Source: a virus (lineage: Duplodnaviria > Caudoviricetes). From it: DNA of 64,000 bases. The stretch is from positions 1 through 64,000 of the IMG/VR virus record IMGVR_UViG_3300037067_012456; one strand, 5' to 3'. The notes below the pieces were generated by a model. The model was not told the origin of the DNA. It searched no databases and was given only the letters and a program-made list of their open reading frames with translations. The translations under genes and the position numbers were made by a program. Positions 2,079 through 53,519 of this stretch are shown piece after piece (position 1 is the first letter of the stretch; the number at the start of each line of letters is the position of its first letter).

Positions 2079-2151
2079 AGCCACCGGGAGAAATTGCATC
2101 CCCAACATTCTGATTACAGGTCAGACGCTCTACTTGTTGAGCTACGATGGC
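2079..2151 (-). tRNA. tRNA-Thr(UGU)
   Basis: cloverleaf GCCATCG/CGGTGGC; anticodon arm tctga-ccTGTaa-tcaga; atypical C33 and T-loop TGCAATT. Confidence 0.85.
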
Positions 2152-2178
2152 ATTTTAATTTGAATGTTCAAATTAAAT

Positions 2179-2249
2179 TTGCGGGTGCAAGAGTCGAACT
2201 TGCTTAAGGAAGGTATGAGCATCCTAACTGACCGTTAGTTTAACCCGCT
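2179..2249 (-). tRNA. tRNA-Met(CAU), initiator-like
   Basis: acceptor AGCGGGT/ACCCGCA with 1:72 mismatch; A11:U24; loop ctCATac; T-loop TTCGACT. Confidence 0.85.
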
Positions 2250-2264
2250 ATATTTCCTAGTACA

Positions 2265-3669: not shown

Positions 3670-4722
3670 TTATTCTTCCTTTAATAAATAATTATTACTA
3701 ATTGATTTAAAAGAAATAATTCTTTCATCATTAAAAACTTCTATATTATTTATAGATTTATATACAACACCTTCTCTTTTTCTATCTGGATTAATAAGAG
3801 ATTGACCATTAGCATGGTTTAACAATAAATCCATTGTAGGATATTTTTGAAATATTTTACTTATAGATATAATAGGAACATGTGGTATATGACTAAAATA
3901 TACATCTAATATAGCTTTTCTTTCTTTTGTAGATAAATAGGATTGAATATTAATATTATAAATATTAAATATAAAAAAAGTAATTTCTTTTAATCCTAAT
4001 CTATTTTTTTGAATTCCAGGACCGGCTATTTCTCCTTGAATAGCTATATTTAAATTAGCACTTTCTAAAGATTTTCTTATATCATATTTTTGCTCAATTT
4101 GAAAATAAGTATTATCATTATTACTATCTATTTTAAAATTAATATTTCTAGAGCAAATACCAAATTCTCCAGAATTCCAATAATAAGTAGCTGAAGTTCC
4201 ATCTATTTTTTCACTTTCTTCAAATTCTTCATTTTCATAAATTGTAAAATATTCAGGAAAATTTTGAATTCTTTCTTCATCTGTTTTACGAATAAAAGAA
4301 GGAAAATTACCTCTTGAAACTCCACGTAATTGAGCTGGAATAGGAGCTTCATATTTCTTAATATTAAGAATAGAAGTAACATCATCACCCTCTACAACAT
4401 TTGTTTCTACAAAAAATAAAGATAAAGGCATTAATAATCCTTGTGAAAGAATTCCTTTAAGTTTTATAGTACGAAGTCTATATCCTTCTGTTCCATCTTC
4501 AAGAGTCTTTCTACCACGAGATTCCATAAATAAAAATGGTTCATTACATGGCAATAAAGAGTCAATTTCAAAATAAATTGCAAGGTCATTTACTTTAAAT
4601 TCATCTTTTTTTACAACACATTGCCACCCATCTATTTTAGCGAGTTCAATAGAATCAGCTCCTTCAATAGGCAGTATTTCAGATACTTTTCTAATAGTTG
4701 CTAATTTCCTTTCAATATTCAT
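3670..4722 (-). CDS. ATP-dependent RNA ligase (DRB0094/Rnl2-like, N-terminal OB domain)
   Basis: N-terminal RKLATIR...IEGAD.IE; motif I EKIDGTS; GEIAGPGIQKN; REGVVYK; FKSISN.YLLK. Confidence 0.9.
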   Translation of the reverse strand: MNIERKLATIRKVSEILPIEGADSIELAKIDGWQCVVKKDEFKVNDLAIYFEIDSLLPCNEPFLFMESRGRKTLEDGTEGYRLRTIKLKGILSQGLLMPLSLFFVETNVVEGDDVTSILNIKKYEAPIPAQLRGVSRGNFPSFIRKTDEERIQNFPEYFTIYENEEFEESEKIDGTSATYYWNSGEFGICSRNINFKIDSNNDNTYFQIEQKYDIRKSLESANLNIAIQGEIAGPGIQKNRLGLKEITFFIFNIYNINIQSYLSTKERKAILDVYFSHIPHVPIISISKIFQKYPTMDLLLNHANGQSLINPDRKREGVVYKSINNIEVFNDERIISFKSISNNYLLKEE

Positions 4723-8618: not shown

Positions 8619-9335
8619 TTATTCTTTAGAAATTCTTTCATACTCTTTTTCCTCTTTATTTTCATTTATAATTAAATTCATCCACCATTTAGTATCAGGA
8701 ACACAATTTAATCCATACCATCTACAACCAAAAGATTCTCCTTGTATAAACTCATGCCAATGACCAAAATACCAATTTGAAGGATTTAATTTAAAAAATA
8801 TTTGATTTAATGCATACATTGAAGGATCTTTTGCTTTATCAAATATATTTAATCTTTCAAAAATTCTAAAATCAAATGGACATGTATGACTACAAATAAT
8901 GTCAATTTTATGAGGAGTTTGTAAGCAATAATTCATATCATGACTATTTAGATATTCTTGTTCCCACCAAGATACACCTATTAGCCTATTTTGTTTATCA
9001 ATAGAATCTGCCCCACCAATAAACATTATTCGTTTTCCATTTATTTCTAAAGTAGAACCTATGGGACAATAAAATATATTAGGTTCAATTTCAACTGGAT
9101 CTGGTCCTCGTCTTCCTACGTATTTTTCAATTTGATCCCAATTTTCATGGTTTCCCGGAATTAGGTAAATTTTGCAGTCTCCTGGTTTTATTTTTTCAAA
9201 ACCATAAATTTCTTCAGGAGAAAAGTAGTATGCGTTGTCTCCAAGTTGGATCAATATATCTGGTTTTTTATTATTTATAAGAGTATTTAAATCACCAAAT
9301 CTTCCGTGAATATCACCGCAAGCTATAATTTTCAT
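8619..9335 (-). CDS. calcineurin-like metallophosphoesterase
   Basis: GDIHG, LGD, GNHE, SHT, GHWH. Confidence 0.9.
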   Translation of the reverse strand: MKIIACGDIHGRFGDLNTLINNKKPDILIQLGDNAYYFSPEEIYGFEKIKPGDCKIYLIPGNHENWDQIEKYVGRRGPDPVEIEPNIFYCPIGSTLEINGKRIMFIGGADSIDKQNRLIGVSWWEQEYLNSHDMNYCLQTPHKIDIICSHTCPFDFRIFERLNIFDKAKDPSMYALNQIFFKLNPSNWYFGHWHEFIQGESFGCRWYGLNCVPDTKWWMNLIINENKEEKEYERISKE

Positions 9336-11883: not shown

Positions 11884-11916
11884 GTAATTTTATTATTATT
11901 TTTAATAATTTTAATG

Positions 11917-12009
11917 CGGAGCAGGAAGGCATCGAACCTTCACACCAGCTTACTAGGCCAATGACCAGTTTTCAAGACTGGGCCGATACCAGTTTCGGTT
12001 GACTGCTCC
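11917..12009 (-). tRNA. tRNA-Ser(UGA)
   Basis: GGAGCAG/CTGCTCC, G73; ccagt-ctTGAaa-actgg; long variable arm. Confidence 0.93.
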
Positions 12010-12012
12010 ATG

Positions 12013-12096
12013 CGGAAGGTATAGGAATTGGACCTATGTAGGAGTTACCCCGCCTCGGTTTAGCAAACCGGCCTATTACCACTCTAGCAACCTTCC
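12013..12096 (-). tRNA. tRNA-Ser(GCU)
   Basis: GGAAGGT/ACCTTCC, G73; loop ttGCTaa; long variable arm. Confidence 0.92.
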
Positions 12097-12098
12097 AT

Positions 12099-12169
12099 TA
12101 GGGCTACCCAGGATTGAACTGGGACTGCCTGGCTGAAAACCAGATGTTCTACCATTAAACTATAGCCCC
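12099..12169 (-). tRNA. tRNA-Glu(UUC)
   Basis: GGGGCTA/TAGCCCT; tctgg-ttTTCag-ccagg. Confidence 0.88.
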
Positions 12170-12173
12170 TTAT

Positions 12174-12245
12174 TGGACCTTACCGGTTATGCTCCGGTTC
12201 CTCCTGCTTGCAGGGCAGGGATTCTCCTGATTAAACTAAAGGCCC
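12174..12245 (-). tRNA. tRNA-Ala(UGC)
   Basis: GGGCCTT/AAGGTCC with G3:U70, A73; cctgc-ccTGCaa-gcagg; atypical T-loop AGCATAA. Confidence 0.88.
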
Positions 12246-14183: not shown

Positions 14184-16724
14184 TTAGTCTTCCATTAAAT
14201 CCTTTTTACTTGCATTAATCCTTTTTTGTTCTTCTTTATCCAATATTTGATAAAAACACGTAGTATTTGGATCAAATACAAAATTAACTAATTTATTACC
14301 TTCTCCCATACGTTGTTTTAGAAAGATAACTTCAGCTATATTTTTATTTATATCATCTTGCATAGCTACCAATGATGCATCTTGGTCACTAGGATCAAAA
14401 TTAAAACTACCTTGTTCTAATACACTTTCTTGTACATTTGTTTTAATTGCTGTTTTTGGATTATAAAATGGTCTATGAATACCAAATATTAAATCTGAAA
14501 TTTCCGTTAATGCTCCAGAGTTTTTAAGATCCTGCATTGTTGGACGAGTATCTTTTCTATTAGCAACATCTCTTCTAATCTGAGCAACTAAAGACATATG
14601 AACACCAAGTTCTTTAGTCATATTTTGAATTATATTACAATTTTTTTCATAATCTCTAGCAAAGTTATCACTACTTTGAAATTCTTTTATTTTACCAAAA
14701 AGGTCAATAAAACATACAATATATTCTGTTTTAAGATGATCTTGTAAAAGCATTATTTGTTCTCTTATAGTATTCAAACTAGGACTTGGTTTATCATTAA
14801 AGAATAGATTATAATTTTTTTCAAGACGTTTTACTTCTGCATAATAGAATGCTTGTTCTTCTTCTGTTAATTCACTTATATTTGATACTACTTTTGTTAT
14901 AGGCAATTGACTATTAAAAGCTAATAGTTTATGAATCAATGGAGTTGTATTCATTTCCAATGCAAATTGGGCTGCAATAATTCCTTTATTAGCAAGATTT
15001 TTCATAGAGGAAAGACAAAATGATGAATTATGTGTAACTGTGAAATCATCATGTAAATACAAACCATCTTTATCTAATTCAAATCCAAAAAATTCTTCTT
15101 TTCCTAAAAATTTTATTTTAATACGAGAAATTATTGGTTCATATTTTTGTAATCTTTTTTCTGCTTTTTTTCTTTTTACTTTACAAGGTATTGTATCATT
15201 ATAGCCACATATTCTAATTCTCCAATAATATCCTTCAAATCCAGTAGATTTTATTTGTTTTTTTTCATATTTTGCGGTACAATAAAATCCAAGACTTCTC
15301 CCAAGAAATAATATATCATCTTTTAATTTAGGATATTTAGTAGAAATTTCATGAATTTTTGATGTCATATATCCATCAGTATCTATCAAACCAGCTAATA
15401 ATTGTAATCTTAATTCTTTTGAATTATATAAATAATCTTTTGGTATATGTTTATTATTTATTAAATTATATTTTTGTAATTTATTAAAAATATAATTTTT
15501 TTCTTTATTATTTCTTTTTATTCTACAATTTGGACAATTTGGTTTCTCTTTAATATTATCTTCATGATAAAGCATTCCTAATCTATTTGCATATTCTTTT
15601 AAATAAGTTCTGATTTCAATATCAGGATTAGATATAGCAGTAGAATCACTATGGCCATCTCCAATCCAACATCCAATAAAATATGGTTCAATAGAAACTT
15701 CTTTTTCAGGAAAATCAATAATAGCTTTATAACCTGTATACTGTTGAAAAAAATAATTTGGTTTTTTCAATGCATCTTCTACAGATATATTTAATATTTC
15801 ACCATTTTCTTTCCACCCAATTGCTGTAGTACTCTTCTTTTTTGCTCCTATTTTAGTTCTAATTGATTCTCCGGTTTTTCTTAATGATAAAATATGATTT
15901 TTATTCACATAATAATCATTTCCTCTATTTTGATGTATTTTATATATATCTCCAAAACCATGATTTAAACTTAATACTTTCCTTGGTAAAGAATCTGGAC
16001 CCATTAAAAAATCACCAATTTTTATATCTTCAATCTTTTTAAAAGAACAATCATACATCATTATAAGTGTTCCTTTTCTTTCGCATTTCCCCATTCCTGC
16101 TAGGGCCGTTATTACAGAAATTTGTTTAGGAGCAAATCCTTCTGTACACAGTTCATCTAATGTAGAGAATCCTGTTGTATATTTATCTATGCTATTATTT
16201 TTATTTAAAAGATATTGAGGCATTAAATCCGCAACACTTTGAAAATCGAGTCTTGAACCAGAATATCCTCTTTCTACTACAGAATCAAAGTAATTTAATC
16301 TTTCTTCTATATCTGATAATTTTGTAGATGGATCACAACATACACTAATTAAAGCACTATTTTTTTCTATTAATTTAGTTTTAACACTATCTACTATTAA
16401 TTTTTGATAATGTTCTTTAAAATTTTCAAGAGGAATTTCTGTAAAATTAGTAATTAAATTAGATAGAAATTCAAAAGTAACATAGAATTTAAGAGGACTT
16501 CCTTTTGATTTTAAAAGAATAGCATCAATATTTACATCCATTTTACTATTAGATGCTTCTATTACTGACCATCCAATAGTTTGATATTCTTTATTTCTAA
16601 AAACTTGCCAGTTTCCTTGTCGTACAAAGAAATCTCTATTTTCTGAATTTAAAATAATATTTGAAGCTAATAGAGCTTCATTATCATTATCTATTGGATA
16701 ATCAAATAGCGTTGTATCAGACAT
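14184..16724 (-). CDS. dnaB: replicative DnaB-like helicase (intein-containing)
   Basis: Walker A ALAGMGK|SS split by an intein; FALEM, AQIRR, RPTMQDLKNSG, KQRMG. Confidence 0.92.
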   Translation of the reverse strand: MSDTTLFDYPIDNDNEALLASNIILNSENRDFFVRQGNWQVFRNKEYQTIGWSVIEASNSKMDVNIDAILLKSKGSPLKFYVTFEFLSNLITNFTEIPLENFKEHYQKLIVDSVKTKLIEKNSALISVCCDPSTKLSDIEERLNYFDSVVERGYSGSRLDFQSVADLMPQYLLNKNNSIDKYTTGFSTLDELCTEGFAPKQISVITALAGMGKCERKGTLIMMYDCSFKKIEDIKIGDFLMGPDSLPRKVLSLNHGFGDIYKIHQNRGNDYYVNKNHILSLRKTGESIRTKIGAKKKSTTAIGWKENGEILNISVEDALKKPNYFFQQYTGYKAIIDFPEKEVSIEPYFIGCWIGDGHSDSTAISNPDIEIRTYLKEYANRLGMLYHEDNIKEKPNCPNCRIKRNNKEKNYIFNKLQKYNLINNKHIPKDYLYNSKELRLQLLAGLIDTDGYMTSKIHEISTKYPKLKDDILFLGRSLGFYCTAKYEKKQIKSTGFEGYYWRIRICGYNDTIPCKVKRKKAEKRLQKYEPIISRIKIKFLGKEEFFGFELDKDGLYLHDDFTVTHNSSFCLSSMKNLANKGIIAAQFALEMNTTPLIHKLLAFNSQLPITKVVSNISELTEEEQAFYYAEVKRLEKNYNLFFNDKPSPSLNTIREQIMLLQDHLKTEYIVCFIDLFGKIKEFQSSDNFARDYEKNCNIIQNMTKELGVHMSLVAQIRRDVANRKDTRPTMQDLKNSGALTEISDLIFGIHRPFYNPKTAIKTNVQESVLEQGSFNFDPSDQDASLVAMQDDINKNIAEVIFLKQRMGEGNKLVNFVFDPNTTCFYQILDKEEQKRINASKKDLMED
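15027..16085 (-). mobile_element. intein with LAGLIDADG endonuclease in DnaB
   Basis: starts CERKGT, ends VTHN before Ser; LAGLIDTDG block. Confidence 0.92.
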
Positions 16725-42309: not shown

Positions 42310-43095
42310 TTATCCATTATTTATAAATCTTTTTGGAAGACCAGATTTTCCCTTTTGTATTAATTTACCAAATAATATCATTCCTTTCGGAGTCATATGA
42401 ACTCCATCAGAATTCATATCTGATTTAGGCAAAATATGATTTTTTTCTATAAAATTTTTAATAAGAGGTAAAAATACTGAATTTGAATCATTCAATACCC
42501 ATTTAATAAGATTAGTATCATAGGCAGTAAAATTTAATATGGCATAAGATATTAAAGTTGCTGGTAAACCATATAAAATTATTCGTGCTTGTGGATATAA
42601 TTCTCTAATTCGATTCAATAAAATTATACATTGTTCATTAACAGAATTAATCTCTTGATGAACAAGAATTGCATTTCCATTAGGAGTTCCAATAACAATA
42701 TTTTTAGGAATATAATTATATTGTTTAAAAAGAGGTTCTAAATCATTTACCAATTGTAGCATATGATGAGACCAGGCACCACCCAAAGCATGATTCATTT
42801 TAGGTTTTATACTATCTATTCTATCTCTACATTGAGCTAAAATAGAATCTCCAATACCCCAAGTTTTATCATTATCATTAGCCATATCTTTTTTAGCATA
42901 GCTAATAAAATTATTTTTACAGGTATTTAAATGATTAGTATAATTTGGATGTGGTATATATGGACCAATTTGAGGAGTTGGAATTTTAGACCACAAAGCT
43001 ATATCCATTTCTCGTATTTTATCTTTTTGAGATTGATATTTTTTTGCATAATATAAAGTTTCTATTTCTGCTATTATTCTAGAAAATAATCCCAT
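42310..43095 (-). CDS. SGNH/GDSL hydrolase
   Basis: IGDSI block I and C-terminal DGVH. Confidence 0.75.
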   Translation of the reverse strand: MGLFSRIIAEIETLYYAKKYQSQKDKIREMDIALWSKIPTPQIGPYIPHPNYTNHLNTCKNNFISYAKKDMANDNDKTWGIGDSILAQCRDRIDSIKPKMNHALGGAWSHHMLQLVNDLEPLFKQYNYIPKNIVIGTPNGNAILVHQEINSVNEQCIILLNRIRELYPQARIILYGLPATLISYAILNFTAYDTNLIKWVLNDSNSVFLPLIKNFIEKNHILPKSDMNSDGVHMTPKGMILFGKLIQKGKSGLPKRFINNG

Positions 43096-43573
43096 TTTTA
43101 TCTCCTTATTTTATTGAATATTTGCAATAATCAACTATTTCATTAAATTTATCTATATCAGCTTTACTATCACCGGTCATTTGAAATTCTAACATTTTAG
43201 AATTTATACATATTTCAAATTGTGCTTTAACTTCTGCATACGTTTTTTTAGTACAACTTTTATAAGAAAATACTGATACCAAGATAAAAACTATAATACC
43301 TATAAATATAGGAGATTTTGAACTCATACTATCCTCTCTTTTTTAATTAAATATTTTCTGATTTATCTAATGGACAAAAAGATGGAAATCCATCTTTTTT
43401 TATTGATTTTATATATTTTATTTTATATTTACTATCATGAAATTTTGGATGTTTACAAATTTTTACTTCTTCCCAATTATCTATTGTGTAATAACCACAT
43501 ATAGTATCACATCTAAATAATTCTAATATCCTTGGCATATATACCTCTATAAAATAATATAGTTATTTATACT

Positions 43574-43614
43574 ATATTGAAGAGTAAAAAATTATTAATT
43601 TTTCATTCTTCAAT
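43574..43614. terminator. hairpin/terminator downstream of the TerD-like gene
   Basis: inverted repeat tattgaaga...tcttcaata with inner aaaaatt/aattttt. Confidence 0.5.
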
Positions 43615-43678
43615 ATTTTTTACATAAACAGTTAAACCACATACACTACAAACTAAAATATGTGCATCTTCTATTTGT

Positions 43679-45601
43679 TCATTTTAATAAATTAATAATT
43701 GTATCTTTTTCTAATGATTCTGGTGATAAATCAATATCACATTCTAATTTATCATCAACTTTTATAGCTCCTGCTTTAAATATCAAATCGTTTAAAGTAA
43801 TCATATTAGTTAATGAATTAATTAGATATTTTCTACTATATTCTGTATATTCATTAACAGATGAAGTAATATTATTTCCTAAATATGATTCATTAAAATA
43901 AAATTTACATTCATTTGTTGTTACAACTACTAAACCTATAGTTTTCTGTTTTTGATCTATTTTAGAAGAAGCTATAGCTAATACATTATTAGGATCTACT
44001 AAACAATTTTTATTAAAAGGACCTGGAGCTTTTAATCCTACCATTATTTTAAATGGTACTTCTTGATCCATATATCCTTTAGAAAACGTAAAATTATTCA
44101 ATTGTACTAAATAGGATGATTTTATTTGTTTATGTATATAAAATAATTCTGTAGCTCCATCTGGTTTAGGAGCAGTAGTCATATCTCCAGAAAATAATAT
44201 ATTACTATTGCTAGTCCTATAAGCTCCATCCCATCCTATTTTACCTTCATTTATATTTAACATAGATAAATCTAAGTCAATTCTATCATCATTAGTATTT
44301 TCCCAATGCACACCAAAAATCATATCTTTTGGTGTGGATATACAAGTACCAGAAGGAAAATATCCAGTAAATCTTTTTTCAGTAGATGGTAATGTATATG
44401 TTATATAATTAGGAATATATACTTTTTTACCTTCAACATTGACTTTTAGATCTTGTATAATTGAATCTAGAACTATATTAAGAATCAATTTAGCATTGTT
44501 TTGATCTTCAAAAGAAAATTTTGTAGAAAATGCTTTATCATTTCTAATAGTATATTGAATAGAATCAAAATTTTTAGTTCTATATTGAAGAGCATATGCT
44601 AAACGAATCTTTCTAAAAATATTCGCTTTTGATAGTTCTTGTTTTAGAGTAGCTATCTTAATACCTTCGTTATTTTTTATTTTTGAAGTAATTTCATTTA
44701 AATAATCTATTGGCATTGGTTTATGATATGTATTAGCAAGTCTTCTAATTTTATTTATAATTGGATTTAAATCTACTTCTCTATTACGAAATGCTAAAAA
44801 TAATGGTTTAAATCTATAAAAAATTTCTGCTAATTTATCTAAACCATTTTCTTTGTTATATCTATTAAATAATTTATAAATATCATAATTAACTGTAATA
44901 GCTTGAATTGTTGTTTTATTTTTAATAAGTAAACTTTTTCCTGTACTTTTAAAGATAACATATCTTAAAAATTCAACAGGTTCATTAGGAATAATATTAA
45001 GAGCATCATATAATCTAATTTTTACTTCTTTATTTTTAATTAAATTAATATTAATACTATATTCAGGATTTTCAACAATAGATACAATATCTTTCATTGT
45101 ATCTTCATTTAAAGCAATACCAGATTGTAAAATATCAAGAATTTTATCTTTTAATTCCTCTACAGTATATCCTTTAATAATTGTAAAAATAAATTTATCT
45201 ATACCTATTTTTTTAAAAATGTTATTATATTCAATTTTCGGAATAACTAATTTTTCAGCAGGAATATAAACATAATTTTCATTATAAGCACCCAAAGACT
45301 CAAATCCATATGTAGTTAGATAATGAATAAATTGTTCCATTACGAGTTGATCTATAGAGGCTTCTTTAATCTTTTTCCAAGATTTGTGGAAAGAAGCATT
45401 CATTTGTTGAGGAGTTAAACCAAGATCTTTATTTATTATATTAATAATACTATTTAATTCTTCTTCTGAATAATTGTACATAACTTCAGGAGAAAAAATA
45501 AAACCATATTGTATGGTTTTATTAATTAGAGAAGAATTAATTTTCTTTCTTTTTGTTTTAATAGGAAGAGCTTTAAAAAGACGTAATGTTTGTTTTTTCA
45601 T
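43679..45601 (-). CDS. large helical protein with C-terminal TerD-like domain (possible TROVE/Ro-like-TerD fusion)
   Basis: C-terminal GVHW...IDLDLS...IGWD...FSGDMTTAP...GATE is TerD-like; the N-terminal ~400 aa look helical; TROVE assignment is inference. Confidence 0.6.
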   Translation of the reverse strand: MKKQTLRLFKALPIKTKRKKINSSLINKTIQYGFIFSPEVMYNYSEEELNSIINIINKDLGLTPQQMNASFHKSWKKIKEASIDQLVMEQFIHYLTTYGFESLGAYNENYVYIPAEKLVIPKIEYNNIFKKIGIDKFIFTIIKGYTVEELKDKILDILQSGIALNEDTMKDIVSIVENPEYSININLIKNKEVKIRLYDALNIIPNEPVEFLRYVIFKSTGKSLLIKNKTTIQAITVNYDIYKLFNRYNKENGLDKLAEIFYRFKPLFLAFRNREVDLNPIINKIRRLANTYHKPMPIDYLNEITSKIKNNEGIKIATLKQELSKANIFRKIRLAYALQYRTKNFDSIQYTIRNDKAFSTKFSFEDQNNAKLILNIVLDSIIQDLKVNVEGKKVYIPNYITYTLPSTEKRFTGYFPSGTCISTPKDMIFGVHWENTNDDRIDLDLSMLNINEGKIGWDGAYRTSNSNILFSGDMTTAPKPDGATELFYIHKQIKSSYLVQLNNFTFSKGYMDQEVPFKIMVGLKAPGPFNKNCLVDPNNVLAIASSKIDQKQKTIGLVVVTTNECKFYFNESYLGNNITSSVNEYTEYSRKYLINSLTNMITLNDLIFKAGAIKVDDKLECDIDLSPESLEKDTIINLLK

Positions 45602-45613
45602 ATTAATTTCCTT

Positions 45614-45794
45614 ATAAGGCGAGAGGTAAATTCAGTGTTATAGAGTTATAAATAGGAACCTCTTATGCCTTATTATTTTAAATGGCGAAAAGTAAATACA
45701 TAAATGGTTTGTTTAATAGGAACTTTTTATGCCATTTTTAAAGCGGGTGGTAGATCACCTATAGATTTTTTTAATAGGAACCACCTTTGCTTTA
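45614..45794 (-). repeat. array of three covarying hairpin ncRNA units (45614-45673, 45680-45737, 45739-45794)
   Basis: shared GC-AWA-[6-bp stem]-UCCUAUU...AUYU-[stem]-C-GC architecture with compensatory stem changes. Confidence 0.85.
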
Positions 45795-45797
45795 TAT

Positions 45798-45828
45798 ATT
45801 ATATAATATATTTATTCAAATTTGTCAA
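45798..45828 (-). promoter_or_regulatory. sigma70-type promoter starting transcription at the first hairpin unit
   Basis: TTGACA followed by TATATA (17-nt spacer) or TATAAT (19-nt spacer). Confidence 0.7.
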
Positions 45829-46811
45829 GAAAATATTATAAAGTTTCTGAATCTATTTCAAAATCTTCTTCTGGCACATCTGAATCAAAGTTATCAAAGT
45901 CTATATCAAGATCTTTAAATATAATATTTTCATCATCAGCATATGCTCCAAGACCATTAAGTATAGTTTCTTTAGTAAAACTCATACCCAACATAGCTCT
46001 AACAAAAACATTTATAAATTCATATACATTAGAAGAAGAGTCAAAAGAACTATCTGATATAAGACTTACATTTTCATTATTTGCTTCATTATTCTCAATA
46101 AAAGGATTTGTTGCTTCAATACTAATTGTTAACATTATATTCTCCTATTTTTATATTAATTTTCCATACTTAATTTTTTTCTATAAAATTTTATTTCTTC
46201 TTTAATTCTATCAGATTTTATCCAAGGATTATAATTAATTTCTCCAGGAATAAGCATATTTACACATTTTTCCCAAAAAACAGCATTAGCTAAACATTGT
46301 ATTTCTTCACCAGGCCAACCTTCAATAATTTTATCATTTATTGCTACGGTTGCTATTTTTTTATTATCTTTCTTAATATCAATCTTCATCTTTAAACACT
46401 TTATTATATGATAAATCATTAAGAATTTGCTCTCCCGCAGAAATAAATAAATCTACATTATCAGAGAGTTCTGGTTGTATTTGATTTTTATTTCTTTCTG
46501 TAAGACTTTCAATTTCAGCCATCATTGCTTTCATAATCCACATGAGAGCTTTTTTAATAGTTATAAGATCTTTATCTGTCATAGTATATATTATTATATC
46601 CTTAATTATATATCTCTATAATCTTTAAAATTTTTTCCAAGAAATTCTAATATTTTAGTTCTATAAGTATCTATTTCTTCTTTTGTAGAAAGCCAAATAC
46701 GGTATCCTTCTATTTCTTTTGTATAAAAGAGTTTATTAAAAATTTCTATAGCTTTATCAATAGCAGCATCATTTGTTTCTTCATTTAAAGCAATTGCTAA
46801 GTGAATTGTTC

Positions 46812-47363
46812 TCATTTTGCTGTTCCTTTTAATATTTTATTATAAAAAACTAAAATTTCTTCCATTGATACTGGTCTATAATTCCAAACATCAACCCCAA
46901 CATTTATAATAGGAATATTAACAATTTTAGGATCTTCGGTATTATATTGAAATTTCCAAAGATTATGTATATGACCACATAATGCAAAATCACAAAACTC
47001 TGGTACTTCTGGTCGCATCATTGGAGGTCTATGTTGAGCAAAAACTTGATATCCACCAAATTCTAATAAAGCAGCCATTAAAATAGATTTAACTCCATTA
47101 TTAATATCATGATTTCCTGTTATATGGATAATCTTTCCATTTAATTTCTTTTCCCAATAATGTGCTTTATTATTTCCTCCTTCTTTTCCTCCACGAAAGC
47201 ACCAATCTCCTAAATTATATACAATATCATCTGGTTTAACTCTTTGATTCCAATTATTTATTAATTTACTATTCATATCATCCACATTTTTAAATGGACG
47301 ATTACAAAATTTAATTATTGATGCGTGTGCAAAGTGAGTGTCTGCACAAAAGAAGGTTTTCAT
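46812..47363 (-). CDS. calcineurin-like phosphoesterase
   Basis: ADTHF.H, LGD, GNHD, GHIH, NVGVD. Confidence 0.9.
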   Translation of the reverse strand: MKTFFCADTHFAHASIIKFCNRPFKNVDDMNSKLINNWNQRVKPDDIVYNLGDWCFRGGKEGGNNKAHYWEKKLNGKIIHITGNHDINNGVKSILMAALLEFGGYQVFAQHRPPMMRPEVPEFCDFALCGHIHNLWKFQYNTEDPKIVNIPIINVGVDVWNYRPVSMEEILVFYNKILKGTAK

Positions 47364-47701: not shown

Positions 47702-50700
47702 TTATCCACATTTACTAAACCCACACTCCATATTAGAACATTTTACACACCCATCAAAATAGATCAATTTACTACCACATTGTTGACATTTACCAGCATC
47801 TTCACCATCAGATATATATTTTTTTAATGTTCTAGCAATAACTTTAGCAAAATGAGTAATACCACCCTCACTTTTATTTAAAGTTTCAACAATAAATTTC
47901 AAAGGTATTCCATGACGTAATTCTAATGAAATTGATCTAGCAAAAGCATCATGTTCTTTATTTGCAAATGTTTTCATTATATTATTAACTATTATTTCAT
48001 CATCAAATTTAAAGGAATAATGACTTGATTTCTGTTTTACAATAAATCCTTCAGTTATATTTTTAGGAATATTCACATCTTCAACTGCTCCAGCAAATAC
48101 TTCAAATGGTTTATTTTCATATAATCCTACAAATGCAATCCACATTTTACCTTGATATACAACTCGGTGAATCTCACATGGAAGTTCTTTGGGTCGTTTT
48201 GGAGCATTTCTTAGTGTTTTATTATCATTATTATGTGTTAATATACCTTCACGACATCCATCTCTATAACAAGTAACCCCGATAATACCTCTTTTATTTG
48301 CTTCTAAAAACACTTGTGACACTTCTTCTGGTGAAATATTTGATGGCATATTTATTGTATTATGAGAAATAATATTATTTATTAAATAACTGTTTGTATC
48401 TTCGACTTCTATATCATAAACTTCATTTTCATTATTTTCTATTTTTTTTATTTTTATTAAATAAAGATCTTTATCAAAATTTGGAAAAAAGTCTAATAAA
48501 ATTCTATTATTAGTTCTAAGTGGATTCTCATTTTTTTGTTGTATATTAAAAGTTTTATGTGAATGTGTATATTTTTCTATATTAGTTGAAACAATATCAC
48601 ATATTTTTATATTTTTCAATTCTTTTGGAAATGGAATTAAATTATATCCAGCAATTTTAATTTGTTTGTGTTTTTCAATTGGAGTAAAAAAAGATTCATT
48701 AATAGATACTCCATAAGTATATTTTGAAATTCTTCCATTTTTTACATATTTTTTCATTTTATATGGTTTTAAACCAAGTTCACAACATATAGAAAAAATA
48801 GAATCAACTAAAGTTTTTGAATATCCTTCGTATAGTACTAATGTATTTCTTTTTATATATCCATCCAAAGATAATCCATTAATAAAATTAATTTTTTCTT
48901 CTTTTGATCCATATAAAATTTCTTTTGGTATTGTTTTATCAAGACAACCATTTCCAATTAAATTTTTTATATATCTCATTAATTTTCTTGAAGTAATATA
49001 TACAGATCTTGTATTTTTTGTTCTTTTATCTTTTATTGTATTAACTTTTTTACATTTAAATAATTTGAAACATAATTGAGTAAAAATATTTTCAACTAAA
49101 TCATCTGCAGTTGTAATACCAACATGTCCTGTACTTTCAACTAATGAGCCATCTGAAACAATCATACCCAAAAATAATGCCAAATCTTCTGACATTATAT
49201 TAGGTAAACAAATATCATTAGAATTTGATTTGTTAGTAAAATCTACACATAAAGATTGTTTACCTATAAACTCTTCTGAATAATCTCTACTTCTACAATA
49301 AATATAATCATTTTCTTTTAAATTTTTTGATTCTATCCATCCATTTTTTGTATATAATTTATGTGTTTCAGAACATTCAAGAATATCACCATTATCAAAA
49401 TATATTATTTTTGTTGGTTTTATACCACCAGAATAATGTTTTTTTATTTTCTTCCAATCACCATTAATATCTCTAACTTTCAAATCTTTAGCTTTTCCAA
49501 AAACATCATTACCACTAGCATCTCCCAATTCTTCTATAGAGAATATTCCTTTATTAGTTTGTATCTTTGTTCCTTTAGCAACACATTTACTTACACTAAG
49601 AGATACATTATTTGCTACAGATTCTAAAATATCTAGATGTTCCATTGGTTTCAGATCACCCGCAGTTACAAAGACTTTTCTCATTTCTTCTGGAATATCT
49701 TTACAAGTTTGACAAGATCCATTATTTTCTGATACTTCTTTCATTATTTTAGTTTTTATTTCAGCAGAAAAATTTTCATTTAAATATTCTTCAAATATAG
49801 GATCTGATAGATATACTGTTTCATATTCTTTATTCAATTTTTCTATTTTTCTAGAATATACTAAACCGAATACCGGTTCAATTCCACTAGATACGTCAGC
49901 TATAAAACTAATTGTTCCTGTAGGAGCTTGGCTAGTAAAACAACTGTTTCTTATACCATGTTTTTTAATATCTTTTTTTAATTGATCTATATCAATATCT
50001 CTACAATTTTTAGTAAAAAACCTCTCATTAGCTTTCATAAATAGATTATAATTAAATGCAGGATAAGCACCAACTTCTGCTGGATTTGCAAGACATTCCC
50101 ATTTTTTGTCTCTTTCTATTTGTTCCTTTCTATATTCTTTTGACAATTCTATAGATTCTTTCATTGAAATTAATGTAAAATATCTAAATAGTTCTTCTGT
50201 GAACTTTATGGCTTTTTCTGAATTATATGGTATTTTTTTCTTAAAAAGAATGTGAGCTAATCCCATTGTACCCAATCCAATGGGTCGTGTATCAAGAGTT
50301 ATTTTCTTTATTTTTGATAGAGGATATATATTAATATCTATGGCATTATCAATAAATCTAGTTGATTCTTTTATTAATTCAGTAAATCGTTCCCAATTAA
50401 ATTTAGATCCATCAAGCATTTTAATTAAATTTATTGAGCCTAAATTGCACGATTGATAAGGAATTCCTGTAAATTCGCTGCAAGGATTACAAATAACTTG
50501 ATCATTTAAATTTGTTACAGTACATCTATCGTGTGCTATTGTTTCATTAAATATACCTGGTTCAGCACATTTCCATGCTTGTTTAATAATGAGATCCCAA
50601 ACTTCTTTAGTAGTATATGTTTTTCCTGTTTTATCCTGAACTGCATATTCAAGACCATTTTTACTCCTTACCATATGAGGACAATTAGGATCTTTTTCAA

Positions 50701-51253
50701 GTTTTTCATAAAATGAAGAAGGAATTTTAATTGAGAGATTTAATCTATTAATTTTTGAAGTATCATCTTTTACTTTAATAAAATCAAGAATATTTGGATG
50801 TTCTATAGAAAGAAGAGCCATTCCAGCTCCCCTTCTTTTACCCCCTTGACGAATACTATCAAGCATTGAATTAAAGTTTTCTATGAATGCAAGAGGTCCA
50901 CTAGAATTAGCACTTAGACTTAATATATTTTCTCCAGAACCACGTAATGACGAAAAATCATATCCAACACCACCACCAGATTTTGTTACTAATGCTCCCT
51001 CTTTTAGAGATTCAAAGATTTCTTCTATGGAATCTTCTATTTGCATTGGAAAACAGGAACTTAATGTTCCTTTTCTTTCAGAAGTTCCCCCATTCATAAG
51101 AGTGGGGGAAGATGGGATAAACCATTTATTTTTAATATATTCTTTAATGGGAGGATATATATTACTAACTCGTTCTGCTAGTTGCTCCCATGTTTCTTCA
51201 TTTTTTAAGAAATAACGTTCCTTAAGAAGTTTTAAAATTGCCCCTTCATTCAT
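47702..51253 (-). CDS. nrdJ: class II (B12-dependent) ribonucleotide reductase, intein-containing
   Basis: PSSPTLMN, SSCF, GGGVG, NPCSE, CNLGSINL, APTGTIS, C-terminal CxxC...C..CGFSKCG; no small-subunit gene nearby. Confidence 0.88.
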   Translation of the reverse strand: MNEGAILKLLKERYFLKNEETWEQLAERVSNIYPPIKEYIKNKWFIPSSPTLMNGGTSERKGTLSSCFPMQIEDSIEEIFESLKEGALVTKSGGGVGYDFSSLRGSGENILSLSANSSGPLAFIENFNSMLDSIRQGGKRRGAGMALLSIEHPNILDFIKVKDDTSKINRLNLSIKIPSSFYEKLEKDPNCPHMVRSKNGLEYAVQDKTGKTYTTKEVWDLIIKQAWKCAEPGIFNETIAHDRCTVTNLNDQVICNPCSEFTGIPYQSCNLGSINLIKMLDGSKFNWERFTELIKESTRFIDNAIDINIYPLSKIKKITLDTRPIGLGTMGLAHILFKKKIPYNSEKAIKFTEELFRYFTLISMKESIELSKEYRKEQIERDKKWECLANPAEVGAYPAFNYNLFMKANERFFTKNCRDIDIDQLKKDIKKHGIRNSCFTSQAPTGTISFIADVSSGIEPVFGLVYSRKIEKLNKEYETVYLSDPIFEEYLNENFSAEIKTKIMKEVSENNGSCQTCKDIPEEMRKVFVTAGDLKPMEHLDILESVANNVSLSVSKCVAKGTKIQTNKGIFSIEELGDASGNDVFGKAKDLKVRDINGDWKKIKKHYSGGIKPTKIIYFDNGDILECSETHKLYTKNGWIESKNLKENDYIYCRSRDYSEEFIGKQSLCVDFTNKSNSNDICLPNIMSEDLALFLGMIVSDGSLVESTGHVGITTADDLVENIFTQLCFKLFKCKKVNTIKDKRTKNTRSVYITSRKLMRYIKNLIGNGCLDKTIPKEILYGSKEEKINFINGLSLDGYIKRNTLVLYEGYSKTLVDSIFSICCELGLKPYKMKKYVKNGRISKYTYGVSINESFFTPIEKHKQIKIAGYNLIPFPKELKNIKICDIVSTNIEKYTHSHKTFNIQQKNENPLRTNNRILLDFFPNFDKDLYLIKIKKIENNENEVYDIEVEDTNSYLINNIISHNTINMPSNISPEEVSQVFLEANKRGIIGVTCYRDGCREGILTHNNDNKTLRNAPKRPKELPCEIHRVVYQGKMWIAFVGLYENKPFEVFAGAVEDVNIPKNITEGFIVKQKSSHYSFKFDDEIIVNNIMKTFANKEHDAFARSISLELRHGIPLKFIVETLNKSEGGITHFAKVIARTLKKYISDGEDAGKCQQCGSKLIYFDGCVKCSNMECGFSKCG
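48359..49585 (-). mobile_element. intein with LAGLIDADG endonuclease in RNR
   Basis: SVSK|CVAKGT...ISHN|TINMP; LGMIVSDG. Confidence 0.92.
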
Positions 51254-52727: not shown

Positions 52728-53519
52728 TTATACTATCTCCATTTCCTTTTTTCGTAAATAAGAGTTTCTTCTAGATTCATTTAACTTTCTTTGGTGTTCT
52801 TCAGAACGTATCCTACCCCTTAGAGATATACTTATTTTATTTTTAGTTTCTTCAGACATTAATTGGCCTTTATGAGATCTACTTAAATTTTCTTTCCATT
52901 CTTCAGAAAATGTAGGACGGTTTTTTCCTTTTGTTTTTTTACTTAAATTATCTTTCCATTCTTGTGTATGTAGTCTCCCTTTTGAAGCTTCCCCTATTTT
53001 CTTTCTTGATTCTATATTTTGTTTTTTTCCTCTCATTCCAAAATTAGGATTATTTTTTATATTTTCTTTAAATTTTCTTTTGGTTTCCTCCGTGGGTTTA
53101 TAACCTTTATGAGATTCACTTAATTTTAATAATGTTTCTTTTGTACGAATTTTTCCTTTATTACTTTCACCTATTTTTTTCTTATGATCTTCTGTTAATT
53201 TTGAACCTTTACGAGAAGGAGGACCGTTTCCACCTTTTGCTATATTATATACATTATTTTTATTTAAAATAAAATATTCTGAAATTATAAATTCTTCCAG
53301 TTCATTTAAATCTTCTATACAATTACATTTATCATAAATAATCTCCCATTTAAAATTATTAATACCATATTTTAAAATGGCTTTATGAAAATACATATTA
53401 TCTTGAGATCTAGCTTGATATAAATGTCCTAATTTTCTCTTTTCAAGAGATTGTGTAGTTTTACCAATATAAATTTTTTTATTTATATTATTTGTAACTT
53501 TGTATAGTATCATTGTCAT
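52728..53519 (-). CDS. GIY-YIG homing endonuclease with NUMOD3 repeats
   Basis: ILYKVTN..NKKIYIGKT, YN...GG, repeated (H/T)xEExKxK(I/L)S motifs. Confidence 0.9.
   Translation of the reverse strand: MTMILYKVTNNINKKIYIGKTTQSLEKRKLGHLYQARSQDNMYFHKAILKYGINNFKWEIIYDKCNCIEDLNELEEFIISEYFILNKNNVYNIAKGGNGPPSRKGSKLTEDHKKKIGESNKGKIRTKETLLKLSESHKGYKPTEETKRKFKENIKNNPNFGMRGKKQNIESRKKIGEASKGRLHTQEWKDNLSKKTKGKNRPTFSEEWKENLSRSHKGQLMSEETKNKISISLRGRIRSEEHQRKLNESRRNSYLRKKEMEIV

What the first reader, a model, noticed from the sequence alone, without database searches (positions are those of the whole stretch)
43679..45828. Three covarying hairpin RNAs as the 5' leader of a helical-TerD protein gene: candidate Ro60/Y-RNA-like RNP system
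Seen: between a TTGACA promoter and the gene's RBS lie three adjacent 56-60-nt units (minus strand): UAAAGC-AAA-GGUGGU-UCCUAUUA...UGAUCU-ACCACC-C-GCUUUA; AAAUGGC-AUA-AAAAGU-UCCUAUUA...GUAUUU-ACUUUU-C-GCCAUUU; AUAAGGC-AUA-AGAGGU-UCCUAUUU...GAAUUU-ACCUCU-C-GCCUUAU. Stems differ in sequence but keep pairing (GGUGGU/ACCACC, AAAAGU/ACUUUU, AGAGGU/ACCUCU). The AWA/C internal loop and the GUUCCUAUU/AUYUAC core are conserved and the apical loops vary, which indicates selection on RNA structure and a protein-binding site. Known: Y RNAs are end-paired stems with a conserved bulged helix bound by Ro60/TROVE proteins and are usually encoded beside the gene. The protein's C-terminus is TerD-like. Inference: the N-terminal helical region is a divergent TROVE-like ring and these are its cognate small RNAs or autoregulatory operators. 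The last unit abuts the RBS (AUAAGGAAAUUAAUAUG), which fits translational feedback.
Basis: partly seen in the sequence, partly recalled or inferred. Interest (0 to 1): 0.88.

Follow-up and report, generated by a model that had tools for sequence, protein, structure and literature searches.

The report
Phage handle RNAs with TerD-fold partner
Three small folded RNAs in front of an unstudied phage gene belong to a widespread, undescribed RNA family that travels with that one protein in phages and bacteria, often among tRNA and RNA-repair genes, so the pair probably forms an RNA-protein particle that works like Ro60 with its Y RNAs but is not related to Ro60.

Summary
Three 56-60-nt hairpins (minus strand: 45794-45739, 45737-45680, 45673-45614) lie between a TTGACA promoter-like site and the RBS of a 640-aa ORF (43679-45601).

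They are not chance. A covariance model built from them finds 214 matches in 80 phage loci and 74 in 72 bacterial or archaeal loci that encode homologues. All but one lie on the gene's strand, nearly all directly upstream, and 10-11 of 12-13 base pairs show compensatory changes. No Rfam family matches.

The protein has a helical N-terminal domain with no known fold and a C-terminal TerD fold (Z 10.8). The TROVE/Ro60 reading fails: no Pfam hit, hhalign probability 0.1-0.2%, and only background-level structural matches. True Ro60 coexists with it in two of five bacterial genomes checked.

The Y-RNA analogy does hold for the RNA. In about 29 loci the same handle is fused to a tRNA-like body, in YrlA order (Rfam YrlA 42 bits, below its cut-off) or inserted in a tRNA anticodon loop. 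Neighbours include tRNA arrays, RtcB, RlaP, a CCA-adding enzyme and a phosphoesterase.

The pair is most likely a new RNA-protein particle acting on tRNA or damaged RNA. Binding is inferred, not shown. The scan has noted this pair before on other DNA.

The parts
45823..45828 (-). -35-like hexamer TTGACA
   Evidence: Read. It lies directly after the stop codon of the upstream 99-aa ORF. Not listed by the strict scan. Plausible, not tested.
45798..45805 (-). -10-like region: TATATA after a 17-nt spacer, or TATAAT after 19 nt
   Evidence: Read. A start about 7 nt downstream would fall on the first bases of unit 1 (inference).
45739..45794 (-). Handle RNA unit 1 (56 nt)
   Evidence: Fold -16 kcal/mol, z -3.76. 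Model R1 scores 72.7 bits in the search of the phage's own genome.
45680..45737 (-). Handle RNA unit 2 (58 nt)
   Evidence: Fold z -3.19. R1 scores 81.9 bits.
45614..45673 (-). Handle RNA unit 3 (60 nt), next to the RBS
   Evidence: Fold z -4.88. R1 scores 78.8 bits. In most related loci the last unit ends 11-32 nt before the start codon.
45608..45613 (-). Shine-Dalgarno-like AAGGAA, 6 nt before the ATG
   Evidence: Read.
43679..45601 (-). 640-aa protein of an unnamed family, the conserved partner of the handle RNAs
   Evidence: ORF. No Pfam or PHROG hit. More than 2,000 homologues and 1,421 cluster representatives. AlphaFold2 model with pLDDT 86.8.
44417..45601 (-). N-terminal, mostly helical domain (about residues 1-395), no known fold
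   Evidence: Best PDB matches have Z <= 7 and cover only residues 298-390. Foldseek finds no hit at E <= 0.001. Many invariant Arg, Lys, His and Tyr residues.
43832..44344 (-). C-terminal TerD-fold beta-sandwich (about residues 420-590)
   Evidence: VIA Z 10.8 to 2qz7_B and 10.2 to 2kxt, with 147-150 residues aligned. Foldseek probability 1.0 to 3ibz, 2kxt and 2qng.
46812..47363 (-). Calcineurin-like phosphoesterase (183 aa), a recurrent neighbour of the module; possibly a functional partner
   Evidence: Pfam Metallophos_2 and phrog_547 phosphoesterase at E 4e-38. Homologues lie near the gene in loci L051, L052, L068 and L119.

Best explanation
The three hairpins are small 'handle' RNAs of a large family that is absent from Rfam. 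They are transcribed together with the 640-aa protein, which is their constant genomic partner.

Each handle presents one conserved surface. It consists of an outer stem ending in G-G-C, a 3x1 internal loop (A-W-A opposite C), a 6-bp inner stem closed by G-C and U-A, and single strands UCCUAUU and UU flanking a variable apical part.

The most likely mechanism is that the protein binds this surface and forms an RNA-protein particle. The protein has a new helical domain rich in invariant basic and aromatic residues, plus a TerD-fold domain. The apical part is a free slot: short and unstructured here, a GC hairpin in some relatives, and a complete tRNA-like body in others.

The tRNA-like bodies and the company of tRNA arrays, RtcB, RlaP, a CCA-adding enzyme and phosphoesterases point to a function. 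The particle most likely acts on tRNAs or damaged RNA, through surveillance, repair, or protection from tRNA-cutting defence nucleases. This is the way Ro60 works with Y RNAs, using an unrelated protein.

Shown: the RNA structure, the RNA-gene linkage, the folds, the tRNA chimeras and the gene neighbourhoods. Inferred: direct binding, processing into about 57-nt RNAs, and the RNA-repair role. Placement of the last unit beside the RBS may add feedback on translation (inferred).
For: 1. Structure under selection. On 133 distinct units, 96.4% of cells pair, against 35-51% when partners are slid. 11 of 13 pairs show changes on both sides, and no shuffle out of 500 reaches the observed covariation score or percentage paired. 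MAFFT plus RNAalifold on 46 units recovers the same 12 pairs independently, 10 of them compensatory.

2. Linkage to the gene.
- 214 model matches in 80 phage loci, 213 on the gene's strand, nearly all within 600 nt upstream.
- 74 matches in 72 bacterial or archaeal loci, all on the gene's strand.
- An independent regex-plus-stem scan gives 203 hits on the gene's strand against 11 on the other.
- A handle core lies upstream in 130 of 144 loci.
- In five whole bacterial genomes, three of the four model matches lie beside the gene; the fourth was not placed.
- The phage's own 104.5-kb record holds only these three units.

3. Not merely a leader element. Arrays lie downstream of the gene in L083, L029, L039, L011 and S-CRM01. 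They lie inside a tRNA array in S-CBWM1 and 1.4 kb away in Phass-1.

4. Link to tRNA.
- L016 3845-3958 scores 62 bits as a tRNA, with the handle circularly permuted into its anticodon loop. About 25 such chimeras were parsed.
- L059 3763-3866 carries a T arm, a closed acceptor stem and a D arm in YrlA order. It matches Rfam YrlA at 42.4 bits, E 3e-8.
- 29 loci hold a chimera of one kind or the other.

5. Gene context.
- tRNA genes occur in 36 of 152 loci, and the gene sits inside large tRNA arrays in S-CRM01, S-CBWM1 and at least 9 metagenomic phages.
- RtcB occurs in 7 loci, a CCA-adding enzyme in 5, RlaP in 2 and a phosphoesterase in 4 plus this window.
- Chryseobacterium defluvii has the order RtcB, three handles, the gene, RlaP.

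6. Protein. It is strongly conserved, with 52% mean column identity over 48 members and many invariant R, K, H and Y residues. It has a TerD fold at the C-terminus.
Against: No experiment or structure shows that the protein binds the RNA. No tool here could model a protein-RNA complex.

The N-terminal domain has no recognisable RNA-binding fold. TerD domains are known for calcium binding and stress resistance, not for RNA.

Most loci (about 70%) show no tRNA or RNA-repair gene within 4-6 kb. No protein neighbour is conserved across loci, so the functional assignment rests on a minority of loci.

This window's array has only minimal hairpins and no tRNA-like member. Its nearest RNA ligase is 40 kb away.

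The constant position just before the RBS would also fit a cis-regulatory leader.

The alignment used was fitted to the model, which inflates the pairing counts. offsets this.
Confidence: 0.65

Rival explanations
1. The units form a cis-acting 5' leader. They would be protein-binding operators, or mRNA-stabilising or ligand-sensing hairpins, that control translation or stability of the downstream gene and have no separate life as small RNAs.
For: The array and the ORF share one promoter-like site, with no terminator between them. In most loci the last unit ends 11-32 nt before the start codon, just ahead of the SD. Same-strand placement upstream is the rule.
Against: Arrays lie downstream of the gene in L083, L029, L039, L011, L073 and S-CRM01. 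They also lie 1.3-1.5 kb away or within tRNA arrays in L031, Phass-1 and S-CBWM1. Copy number varies from 1 to 7. Members are fused to complete tRNA-like bodies, some with an encoded CCA end, which a leader does not need. Autoregulation could still coexist with a trans-acting role.
Confidence: 0.17
2. One reading: the protein is a divergent Ro60 (TROVE ring) and the units are true Y RNAs.
For: Ro60 structures appear among the weak helical matches: 9l5y_B at Z 4.6 with 149 residues aligned, 1yvp_A at Z 5.7, and 9nep_A and 2i91_B at Foldseek E 0.55-0.67. The handle motif G-G-C-A-W-A-R-G loosely resembles the bacterial Y-RNA motif GNCGAAN0-1G quoted in PMC4201824. Relatives carry a YrlA-like tRNA domain.
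Against: No Pfam TROVE or vWA_Ro60 hit appears in any of 48 members at E <= 1. hhalign probability is 0.1-0.2%, against 100% for the control. The Ro60 matches do not rise above dozens of unrelated solenoid proteins. The C-terminal domain is TerD, not vWA. True Ro60 coexists with this gene in Chryseobacterium defluvii, and lies 1.8 kb away in Bythopirellula. The window units do not hit Y_RNA or YrlA at E <= 10.
Confidence: 0.07
3. The array is a guide-RNA array of the CRISPR or TIGR type. The conserved hairpin is the scaffold, the variable loop is a guide, and the protein is the effector or processing enzyme.
For: The units are tandem, with a constant scaffold and variable loops. TIGR stem-loop arrays in phages have a similar look (PMC12045711).
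Against: The units have no box C or box D motifs (reading and of the consensus). The protein has no Nop, RuvC or HNH Pfam hit. Loop length ranges from about 10 to more than 100 nt and is often a GC hairpin or a tRNA body. The three loops have no meaningful match elsewhere in the 104.5-kb phage record. Host targets could not be searched.
Confidence: 0.05
4. The repeats act as DNA, for example as operators, iterons or recombination sites, and the pairing is incidental.
For: They are direct repeats placed at a promoter.
Against: Stem sequences change freely while pairing is kept, including G-U pairs, which is selection at the RNA level. Orientation relative to the gene is strict, 213 of 214 matches. 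Some members are fused to tRNA-like bodies.
Confidence: 0.02

Closest known systems
Ro60 (Rsr; TROVE + vWA) with bacterial and phage Y RNAs, especially YrlA (Rfam RF02553; Chen et al. 2014, PMC4201824), as in the Salmonella rsr-yrlBA-rtcBA operon
   Same: One or more small RNAs are encoded beside the gene of one large protein. The RNA is modular: a paired-end stem with a conserved internal loop (the presumed protein site) plus a variable module that in some members mimics tRNA in the same strand order as YrlA. Both associate with RtcB and other RNA-repair genes. Both occur in bacteria and phages.
   Different: The protein is not TROVE plus vWA. It has an unclassified helical domain plus a TerD fold. 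The handle sequence and shape differ from the Ro60 site, and Rfam YrlA and Y_RNA do not match the window units. Most members, including all three here, are minimal hairpins of 55-65 nt without a tRNA-like domain. They come in tandem arrays of 2-7. A circularly permuted form sits in a tRNA anticodon loop. True Ro60 can coexist in the same genome.
TerD family tellurite-resistance proteins (PDB 2qz7, 2kxt, 3ibz)
   Same: The C-terminal domain, about residues 420-590, has the TerD beta-sandwich: Z 10.8 and 10.2, Foldseek probability 1.0. Dx-D-x-S and S-G-D motifs are conserved in the family alignment.
   Different: There is no Pfam TerD hit by sequence. The domain is fused to a helical domain of about 400 residues that stand-alone TerD proteins lack. 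The gene is not in a ter operon. Its partner is an RNA, which is not known for TerD proteins.
TIGR-Tas tandem stem-loop guide-RNA arrays of phages (Faure et al. 2025, PMC12045711)
   Same: Tandem stem-loop RNAs lie next to one protein gene in phages and are processed as single units in that system.
   Different: There are no box C/D motifs, no dual spacers and no Nop-domain protein. The variable part is not of guide-like constant length.
SPFH/Band-7 module with a tRNA-like RNA, and Rot/TROVE scaffolds in RNA-repair operons (Burroughs and Aravind 2016). Recalled from memory; the paper is not in the library.
   Same: The idea of a scaffold protein plus a cognate noncoding RNA next to RNA ligases and RlaP.
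   Different: The protein fold differs. Whether that survey lists this family could not be checked.

Membership tests
Ro60 / TROVE proteins | TROVE domain recognisable by sequence or profile (Pfam PF05731) | tested here: not met
   No hit at E <= 1 in the window protein or in 47 homologues. hhalign of the family alignments against 12 true TROVE proteins gives probability 0.1-0.2%, with a positive control at 100%.
Ro60 / TROVE proteins | C-terminal vWA domain with a MIDAS site (PF25045 vWA_Ro60) | tested here: not met
   The C-terminal domain is a TerD beta-sandwich, Z 10.8. No vWA hit.
Ro60 / TROVE proteins | Closed ring of HEAT-like repeats | tested here: inconclusive
   Ro60 chains match only weakly: Z 4.6-5.7, Foldseek E 0.55-0.67, TM 0.21-0.23. 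This is the level of many unrelated helical-repeat proteins. The model's coordinates could not be inspected for a ring.
Y RNA / YrlA (Rfam RF00019, RF02553) | Match to the family covariance model at its gathering score | tested here: not met
   The window units give no Y_RNA or YrlA match even at E <= 10. A relative with a tRNA-like domain (L059) reaches 42.4 bits against a gathering score of 69. Only the tRNA-like part aligns, not the Ro60-binding stem.
Y RNA / YrlA (Rfam RF00019, RF02553) | 5' and 3' ends paired in a stem that carries a conserved internal loop or bulge (the protein site) | tested here: met
   The outer stem, the 3x1 loop and the inner stem are supported by covariation.
Y RNA / YrlA (Rfam RF00019, RF02553) | Ro60-binding motif: GGUCCGA in vertebrates, GNCGAAN0-1G in bacteria (PMC4201824) | tested here: not met
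   The consensus here is G-G-C-A-W-A-R-G, and the first loop base is A in 149 of 150 units. The motif text is quoted.
Y RNA / YrlA (Rfam RF00019, RF02553) | Length of 80-130 nt with a large internal loop or a tRNA-like domain | tested here: not met
   The window units are 56-60 nt with an 18-20-nt variable insert within the apical loop. Met only by some relatives.
Y RNA / YrlA (Rfam RF00019, RF02553) | Encoded next to the gene of the protein partner | tested here: met
   Units lie adjacent to the gene, on its strand, in about 90% of loci. The partner, however, is not Ro60.
TerD family | TerD beta-sandwich fold | tested here: met
   2qz7_B: Z 10.8, rmsd 3.1, 147 residues aligned. 2kxt: Z 10.2. 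Foldseek probability 1.0.
TerD family | Sequence match to Pfam TerD | tested here: not met
   No Pfam TerD hit at E <= 1 in 48 members.
TIGR-Tas | Nop-domain protein, and box C/D motifs flanking dual spacers | tested here: not met
   No Nop hit. The unit consensus has no RUGAUGA or CUGA boxes. Definition taken from PMC12045711.
tRNA | Cloverleaf recognised by ARAGORN or Rfam RF00005 | tested here: not met
   No tRNA call overlaps 45614-45794. Met only by chimeric relatives such as L016.

The most novel reading that the evidence does not exclude
Phages, bacteria and some archaeal bins share a second Y-RNA-type particle that does not depend on Ro60. A protein with a new RNA-binding fold, fused to a TerD domain, grips a universal 'handle'. 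The handle can be attached to anything from a bare loop to a whole tRNA mimic, in either circular permutation. Phages would deploy arrays of these RNAs, with tRNA genes and RNA-repair enzymes, to repair or shield tRNAs from host anticodon nucleases.
Probability: 0.45. Interest if true: 0.9.

Novelty: new variant of a known kind. Interest (0 to 1): 0.8.

Why it matters
If the pair forms a particle, it is a widespread ribonucleoprotein missing from the family libraries and papers searched here. It has over 2,000 protein homologues, occurs in cultured cyanophages, Campylobacter and Lactobacillus phages, and is found in bacteria of several phyla.

It would show that the Y-RNA design, a protein handle plus an exchangeable module that is often a tRNA mimic, arose or was adopted with a protein unrelated to Ro60. 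It would give TerD-fold domains an RNA-linked role. It would also help explain genes that sit inside phage tRNA arrays.

The handle is small (about 35 conserved positions), modular and tolerant of circular permutation and large insertions. That makes it a tractable model for RNA-protein recognition and possibly a useful tag. A cultured host, Chryseobacterium defluvii DSM 14219, carries RtcB, three handles, the gene and RlaP in a row, so the question can be tested directly.

Tried and rejected
- Rfam at gathering score over the whole window, and at E <= 10 over 45500-45900, gave only tRNAs elsewhere and noise here: snoR16 at 17 bits, RsaF at 14 bits.
- Pfam and PHROGs on the protein gave nothing.
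- A profile search of PDB sequences gave nothing below E 0.69.
- blastn of 43000-47000 against phage records gave no match.
- The ESM Atlas returned only unnamed viral clusters.
- Foldseek and VIA on the N-terminal domain alone found no fold above background. When that domain is folded without the TerD domain, residues 62-136 lose confidence.
- A conserved protein neighbour was sought by clustering all ORFs of 152 loci. None exists beyond the gene itself.
- Guide-RNA idea: the loops have no match in the phage's own record.
- HEPN idea: the invariant R286 and H293 fit an Rx6H spacing on one helix. No HEPN Pfam or structural hit supports it, so it remains only a lead.
- The HEPN survey paper mentions TerD only in an unrelated context.
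- The Burroughs and Aravind 2016 RNA-repair survey could not be read.
- The three tRNA-mimic families of a 2026 preprint (skipping-rope, DUF2693-FD, salivarius-1) are different RNAs.
- The phage record holds no TROVE, RtcB or CCA-adding enzyme gene, but it is only about 38% complete.
- Complex prediction was not used. Two copies exceed its size limit, and its listed chain types (protein, reference protein or ligand) do not include RNA.
Full report
**What is there.** On the minus strand, a TTGACA hexamer (45828-45823) follows the stop codon of a 99-aa ORF. After it come TATATA (17-nt spacer) or TATAAT (19-nt spacer), and then three adjacent units at 45794-45739, 45737-45680 and 45673-45614. The units are separated by 1 and 6 nt. 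An AAGGAA Shine-Dalgarno-like site (45613-45608) and the ATG of a 640-aa ORF (43679-45601) follow directly.

The z-scores against dinucleotide shuffles are -3.8, -3.2 and -4.9. The strict promoter scan did not list the site, and such hexamers are common in this AT-rich DNA, so the promoter is plausible but untested. No terminator-like site lies between the array and the ORF.

**The window.** It is part of a 104.5-kb record of an uncultured large phage, estimated about 38% complete. It holds 10-11 tRNA genes, an RNA ligase among them, a ribonucleotide reductase with an intein, and several phosphoesterases.

**The RNA is a real, conserved family.** The protein has more than 2,000 homologues in metagenomes and 1,421 representatives at 50% clustering. 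I fetched 80 phage loci and 72 loci from bacterial and archaeal genome bins.

- A covariance model built from only the three window units found 214 matches in the phage loci, 213 on the strand of the gene and nearly all within 600 nt upstream.
- It found 74 matches in the genome loci, all on the gene's strand.
- A separate scan that uses only a short core pattern plus a pairing test gave 203 hits on the gene's strand and 11 on the other.
- Of 144 loci with enough upstream sequence, 130 have a handle core.
- In five whole bacterial genomes of 3.7-7.5 Mb the model gave four matches. Three lie beside the gene in Chryseobacterium and the Melioribacteraceae genome. The fourth, a weak match (E 0.004) in the Geminocystis genome, I could not place relative to the gene.
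- The phage's own record holds only the three units.

**Covariation.** On 133 distinct units, 96.4% of cells form standard pairs, against 35-51% when the partners are slid by 1-3 columns. Eleven of 13 pairs show changes on both sides. One pair, for example, reads AU 52, GC 29, UA 27, CG 23. That alignment was fitted to the model, so I repeated the test with MAFFT and RNAalifold on 46 units. The same 12 pairs came back, 10 of them with compensatory changes.

The consensus is an outer stem ending G-G-C, then A-W-A, an inner stem R-G-N-R-G-U, then UCCUAUUAAA, a variable part, U, the return strand A-C-Y-N-C-Y, the lone C, and G-C-C of the outer stem. C12, A13, A17, U25-U29, A152, C158 and G159 are invariant or nearly so. 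No Rfam family matches at gathering score or at E <= 10.

**The protein.** It has no Pfam or PHROG family, and none of 48 members hits TROVE, vWA or TerD at E <= 1.

The AlphaFold2 model is confident, with pLDDT 86.8 and pTM 0.87. Residues of about 420-590 form a TerD beta-sandwich: 2qz7_B at Z 10.8, rmsd 3.1, 147 residues aligned; 2kxt at Z 10.2; Foldseek probability 1.0.

The first 395 residues or so are mostly helical and match nothing clearly. Folded alone, the best Z is 7.0 and covers only residues 298-390, and Foldseek gives no hit at E <= 0.001.

Ro60 chains do appear: 9l5y_B at Z 4.6, 1yvp_A at Z 5.7, 9nep_A and 2i91_B at E 0.55-0.67. They sit among TPR, HEAT, exportin and Pumilio proteins at the same level, which is what any helical repeat gives.

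A profile-profile comparison with 12 true TROVE proteins, taken from Bacteroidota genomes and a Bythopirellula genome, gives probability 0.1-0.2%. The control, TROVE half-set against half-set, gives 100%.

True Ro60 genes coexist with this gene in Chryseobacterium defluvii. In Bythopirellula one lies 1.8 kb downstream on the other strand.

Full-length structural relatives exist in Campylobacter phages IBB35 and CP21 and in Lactobacillus phage LpeD. All are unannotated.

**The tRNA link.** In Synechococcus phages S-CRM01 and S-CBWM1 the homologue sits inside the tRNA gene array. The same holds for at least nine metagenomic phages, where a tRNA often ends a few bases before the first unit and another starts just after the gene. 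tRNA genes occur in 36 of 152 loci.

More telling, the arrays themselves contain handle-tRNA chimeras.

- In L016 the element next to the gene scores 62 bits as a tRNA. It has acceptor, D and T arms, and a 48-nt insertion in place of the anticodon loop. Read out, the insertion is the handle in circular permutation: UUU, the inner-stem return strand, C, a short outer stem closed by a loop, A-A-A, the inner stem, then UCCUAUU. I parsed the same arrangement in 25 of 29 candidates from other loci, some with an encoded CCA end.
- In other loci, such as L059, the handle keeps its ends. Its apical slot holds a T arm, an acceptor stem closed by a loop, and a D arm, which is the strand order of YrlA. 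Rfam's YrlA model matches this element at 42.4 bits (E 3e-8 for the stretch; gathering score 69). Only the tRNA-like part aligns, not the Ro60-binding stem.
- A strict pattern census finds 11 loci with the YrlA-like order and 22 with the tRNA-terminal order, 29 loci in all.

The three units of this window are the minimal form, and the available part of this phage has no chimera.

**Neighbours.** No protein-coding neighbour is conserved across loci. A minority of loci carry RNA-repair genes: RtcB in 7, a CCA-adding enzyme in 5, RlaP in 2, a calcineurin-like phosphoesterase in 4, and Ro60 in 1.

The window's own 183-aa phosphoesterase (46812-47363), about 1 kb upstream of the array, belongs to that recurrent phosphoesterase group. 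In the cultured Chryseobacterium defluvii DSM 14219 the order is RtcB, three handles, the gene, RlaP. This parallels the Salmonella rsr-yrlBA-rtcBA operon described in PMC4201824.

**How it most likely works.** The linkage of one RNA surface to one protein family holds across phages and distant bacteria, whatever else is nearby. That is best explained by direct binding, with the handle as the protein's docking site (inferred, not shown).

The apical position tolerates anything from 10 nt to a whole tRNA body, and the handle works in both circular permutations. This fits a modular adaptor: a constant protein handle plus an exchangeable module. The tRNA mimics and the tRNA and repair context point to a role with tRNAs or damaged RNA, as for Ro60 with Y RNAs.

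In this phage the three minimal RNAs would be made from the same transcript as the protein. The predicted start falls on the first bases of unit 1 (inference). The last unit's conserved position 11-32 nt before the start codon allows feedback on translation.

A purely cis-acting role is unlikely. Arrays also lie downstream of the gene, more than 1 kb away, or inside tRNA arrays.

A guide-RNA reading is weak. There are no box C/D motifs and no Nop or nuclease domain, loop lengths are irregular, and the loops match nothing in the phage record.

**Comparison and novelty.** The system works like Ro60 with Y RNA but fails the membership tests for TROVE, vWA, and the Y_RNA and YrlA models. It is a TerD-fold protein by structure only. 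I found no paper that describes the pair. One relevant survey could not be read.

Earlier notes of this scan report the same RNA-protein pair on other DNA. I used them as leads for the RtcB and YrlA checks and tested those here.

I class it as a new variant of a known kind: a Y-RNA-type particle with an unrelated protein and a new handle. Binding and function remain to be shown.

Noticed in passing
L016:3845-3958 (also L008, L014, L023, L075, L099, L104, L115-L117, L126, L129 and others): tRNA-like RNAs of 110-133 nt with canonical acceptor, D and T arms. Their anticodon loop is replaced by the circularly permuted handle hairpin, and some have an encoded CCA end. ARAGORN calls them tRNAs with about 40-nt 'introns' and assigns them inconsistent anticodons.
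   Followed up: yes
L107:9690-11339 (Bythopirellula chromosome): A true Ro60 gene (TROVE + vWA_Ro60) lies 1.8 kb downstream of the TerD-fold family gene on the opposite strand, with a PcfJ-like gene between them. About 13 tRNA genes are also nearby.
   Followed up: partly
window 3670-4722: An RNA ligase (PHA02142 OB-fold + RNA_ligase domains) sits among the phage tRNA genes. A calcineurin-like phosphoesterase lies at 8619-9335 and an ARPP-1 domain protein at 337-1425. Together these may form a tRNA-repair set 40 kb from the handle array.
   Followed up: partly
window 47702-51253 and 14184-16724: The large subunit of ribonucleotide reductase is interrupted by an intein. A DnaB-like helicase is interrupted by a Hint/LAGLIDADG homing-endonuclease intein. 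A free-standing GIY-YIG/NUMOD3 endonuclease lies at 52728-53519.
   Followed up: no
window 2079-2250 and 11916-12245: ARAGORN and Rfam disagree on some tRNA calls. Only Rfam calls 2079-2151 and 12174-12245. Only ARAGORN calls tRNA-Met at 2178-2250 and tRNA-Ser at 11916-12009.
   Followed up: no
window 43679-45601, residues 283-295: N283, R286, A289, H293 and P295 are invariant on one helix, giving an R-x6-H spacing like the HEPN RNase motif. No HEPN hit by Pfam or by fold search, so this is an untested lead for a catalytic site.
   Followed up: partly
L084-L092, L095, L119, L134 (genome contigs): Many homologues with about 50% identity sit on contigs binned as DPANN, Asgard or other archaea. 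Several are short contigs with phage-like content and may be mis-binned phage DNA. Whether archaea truly carry the module is open.
   Followed up: no
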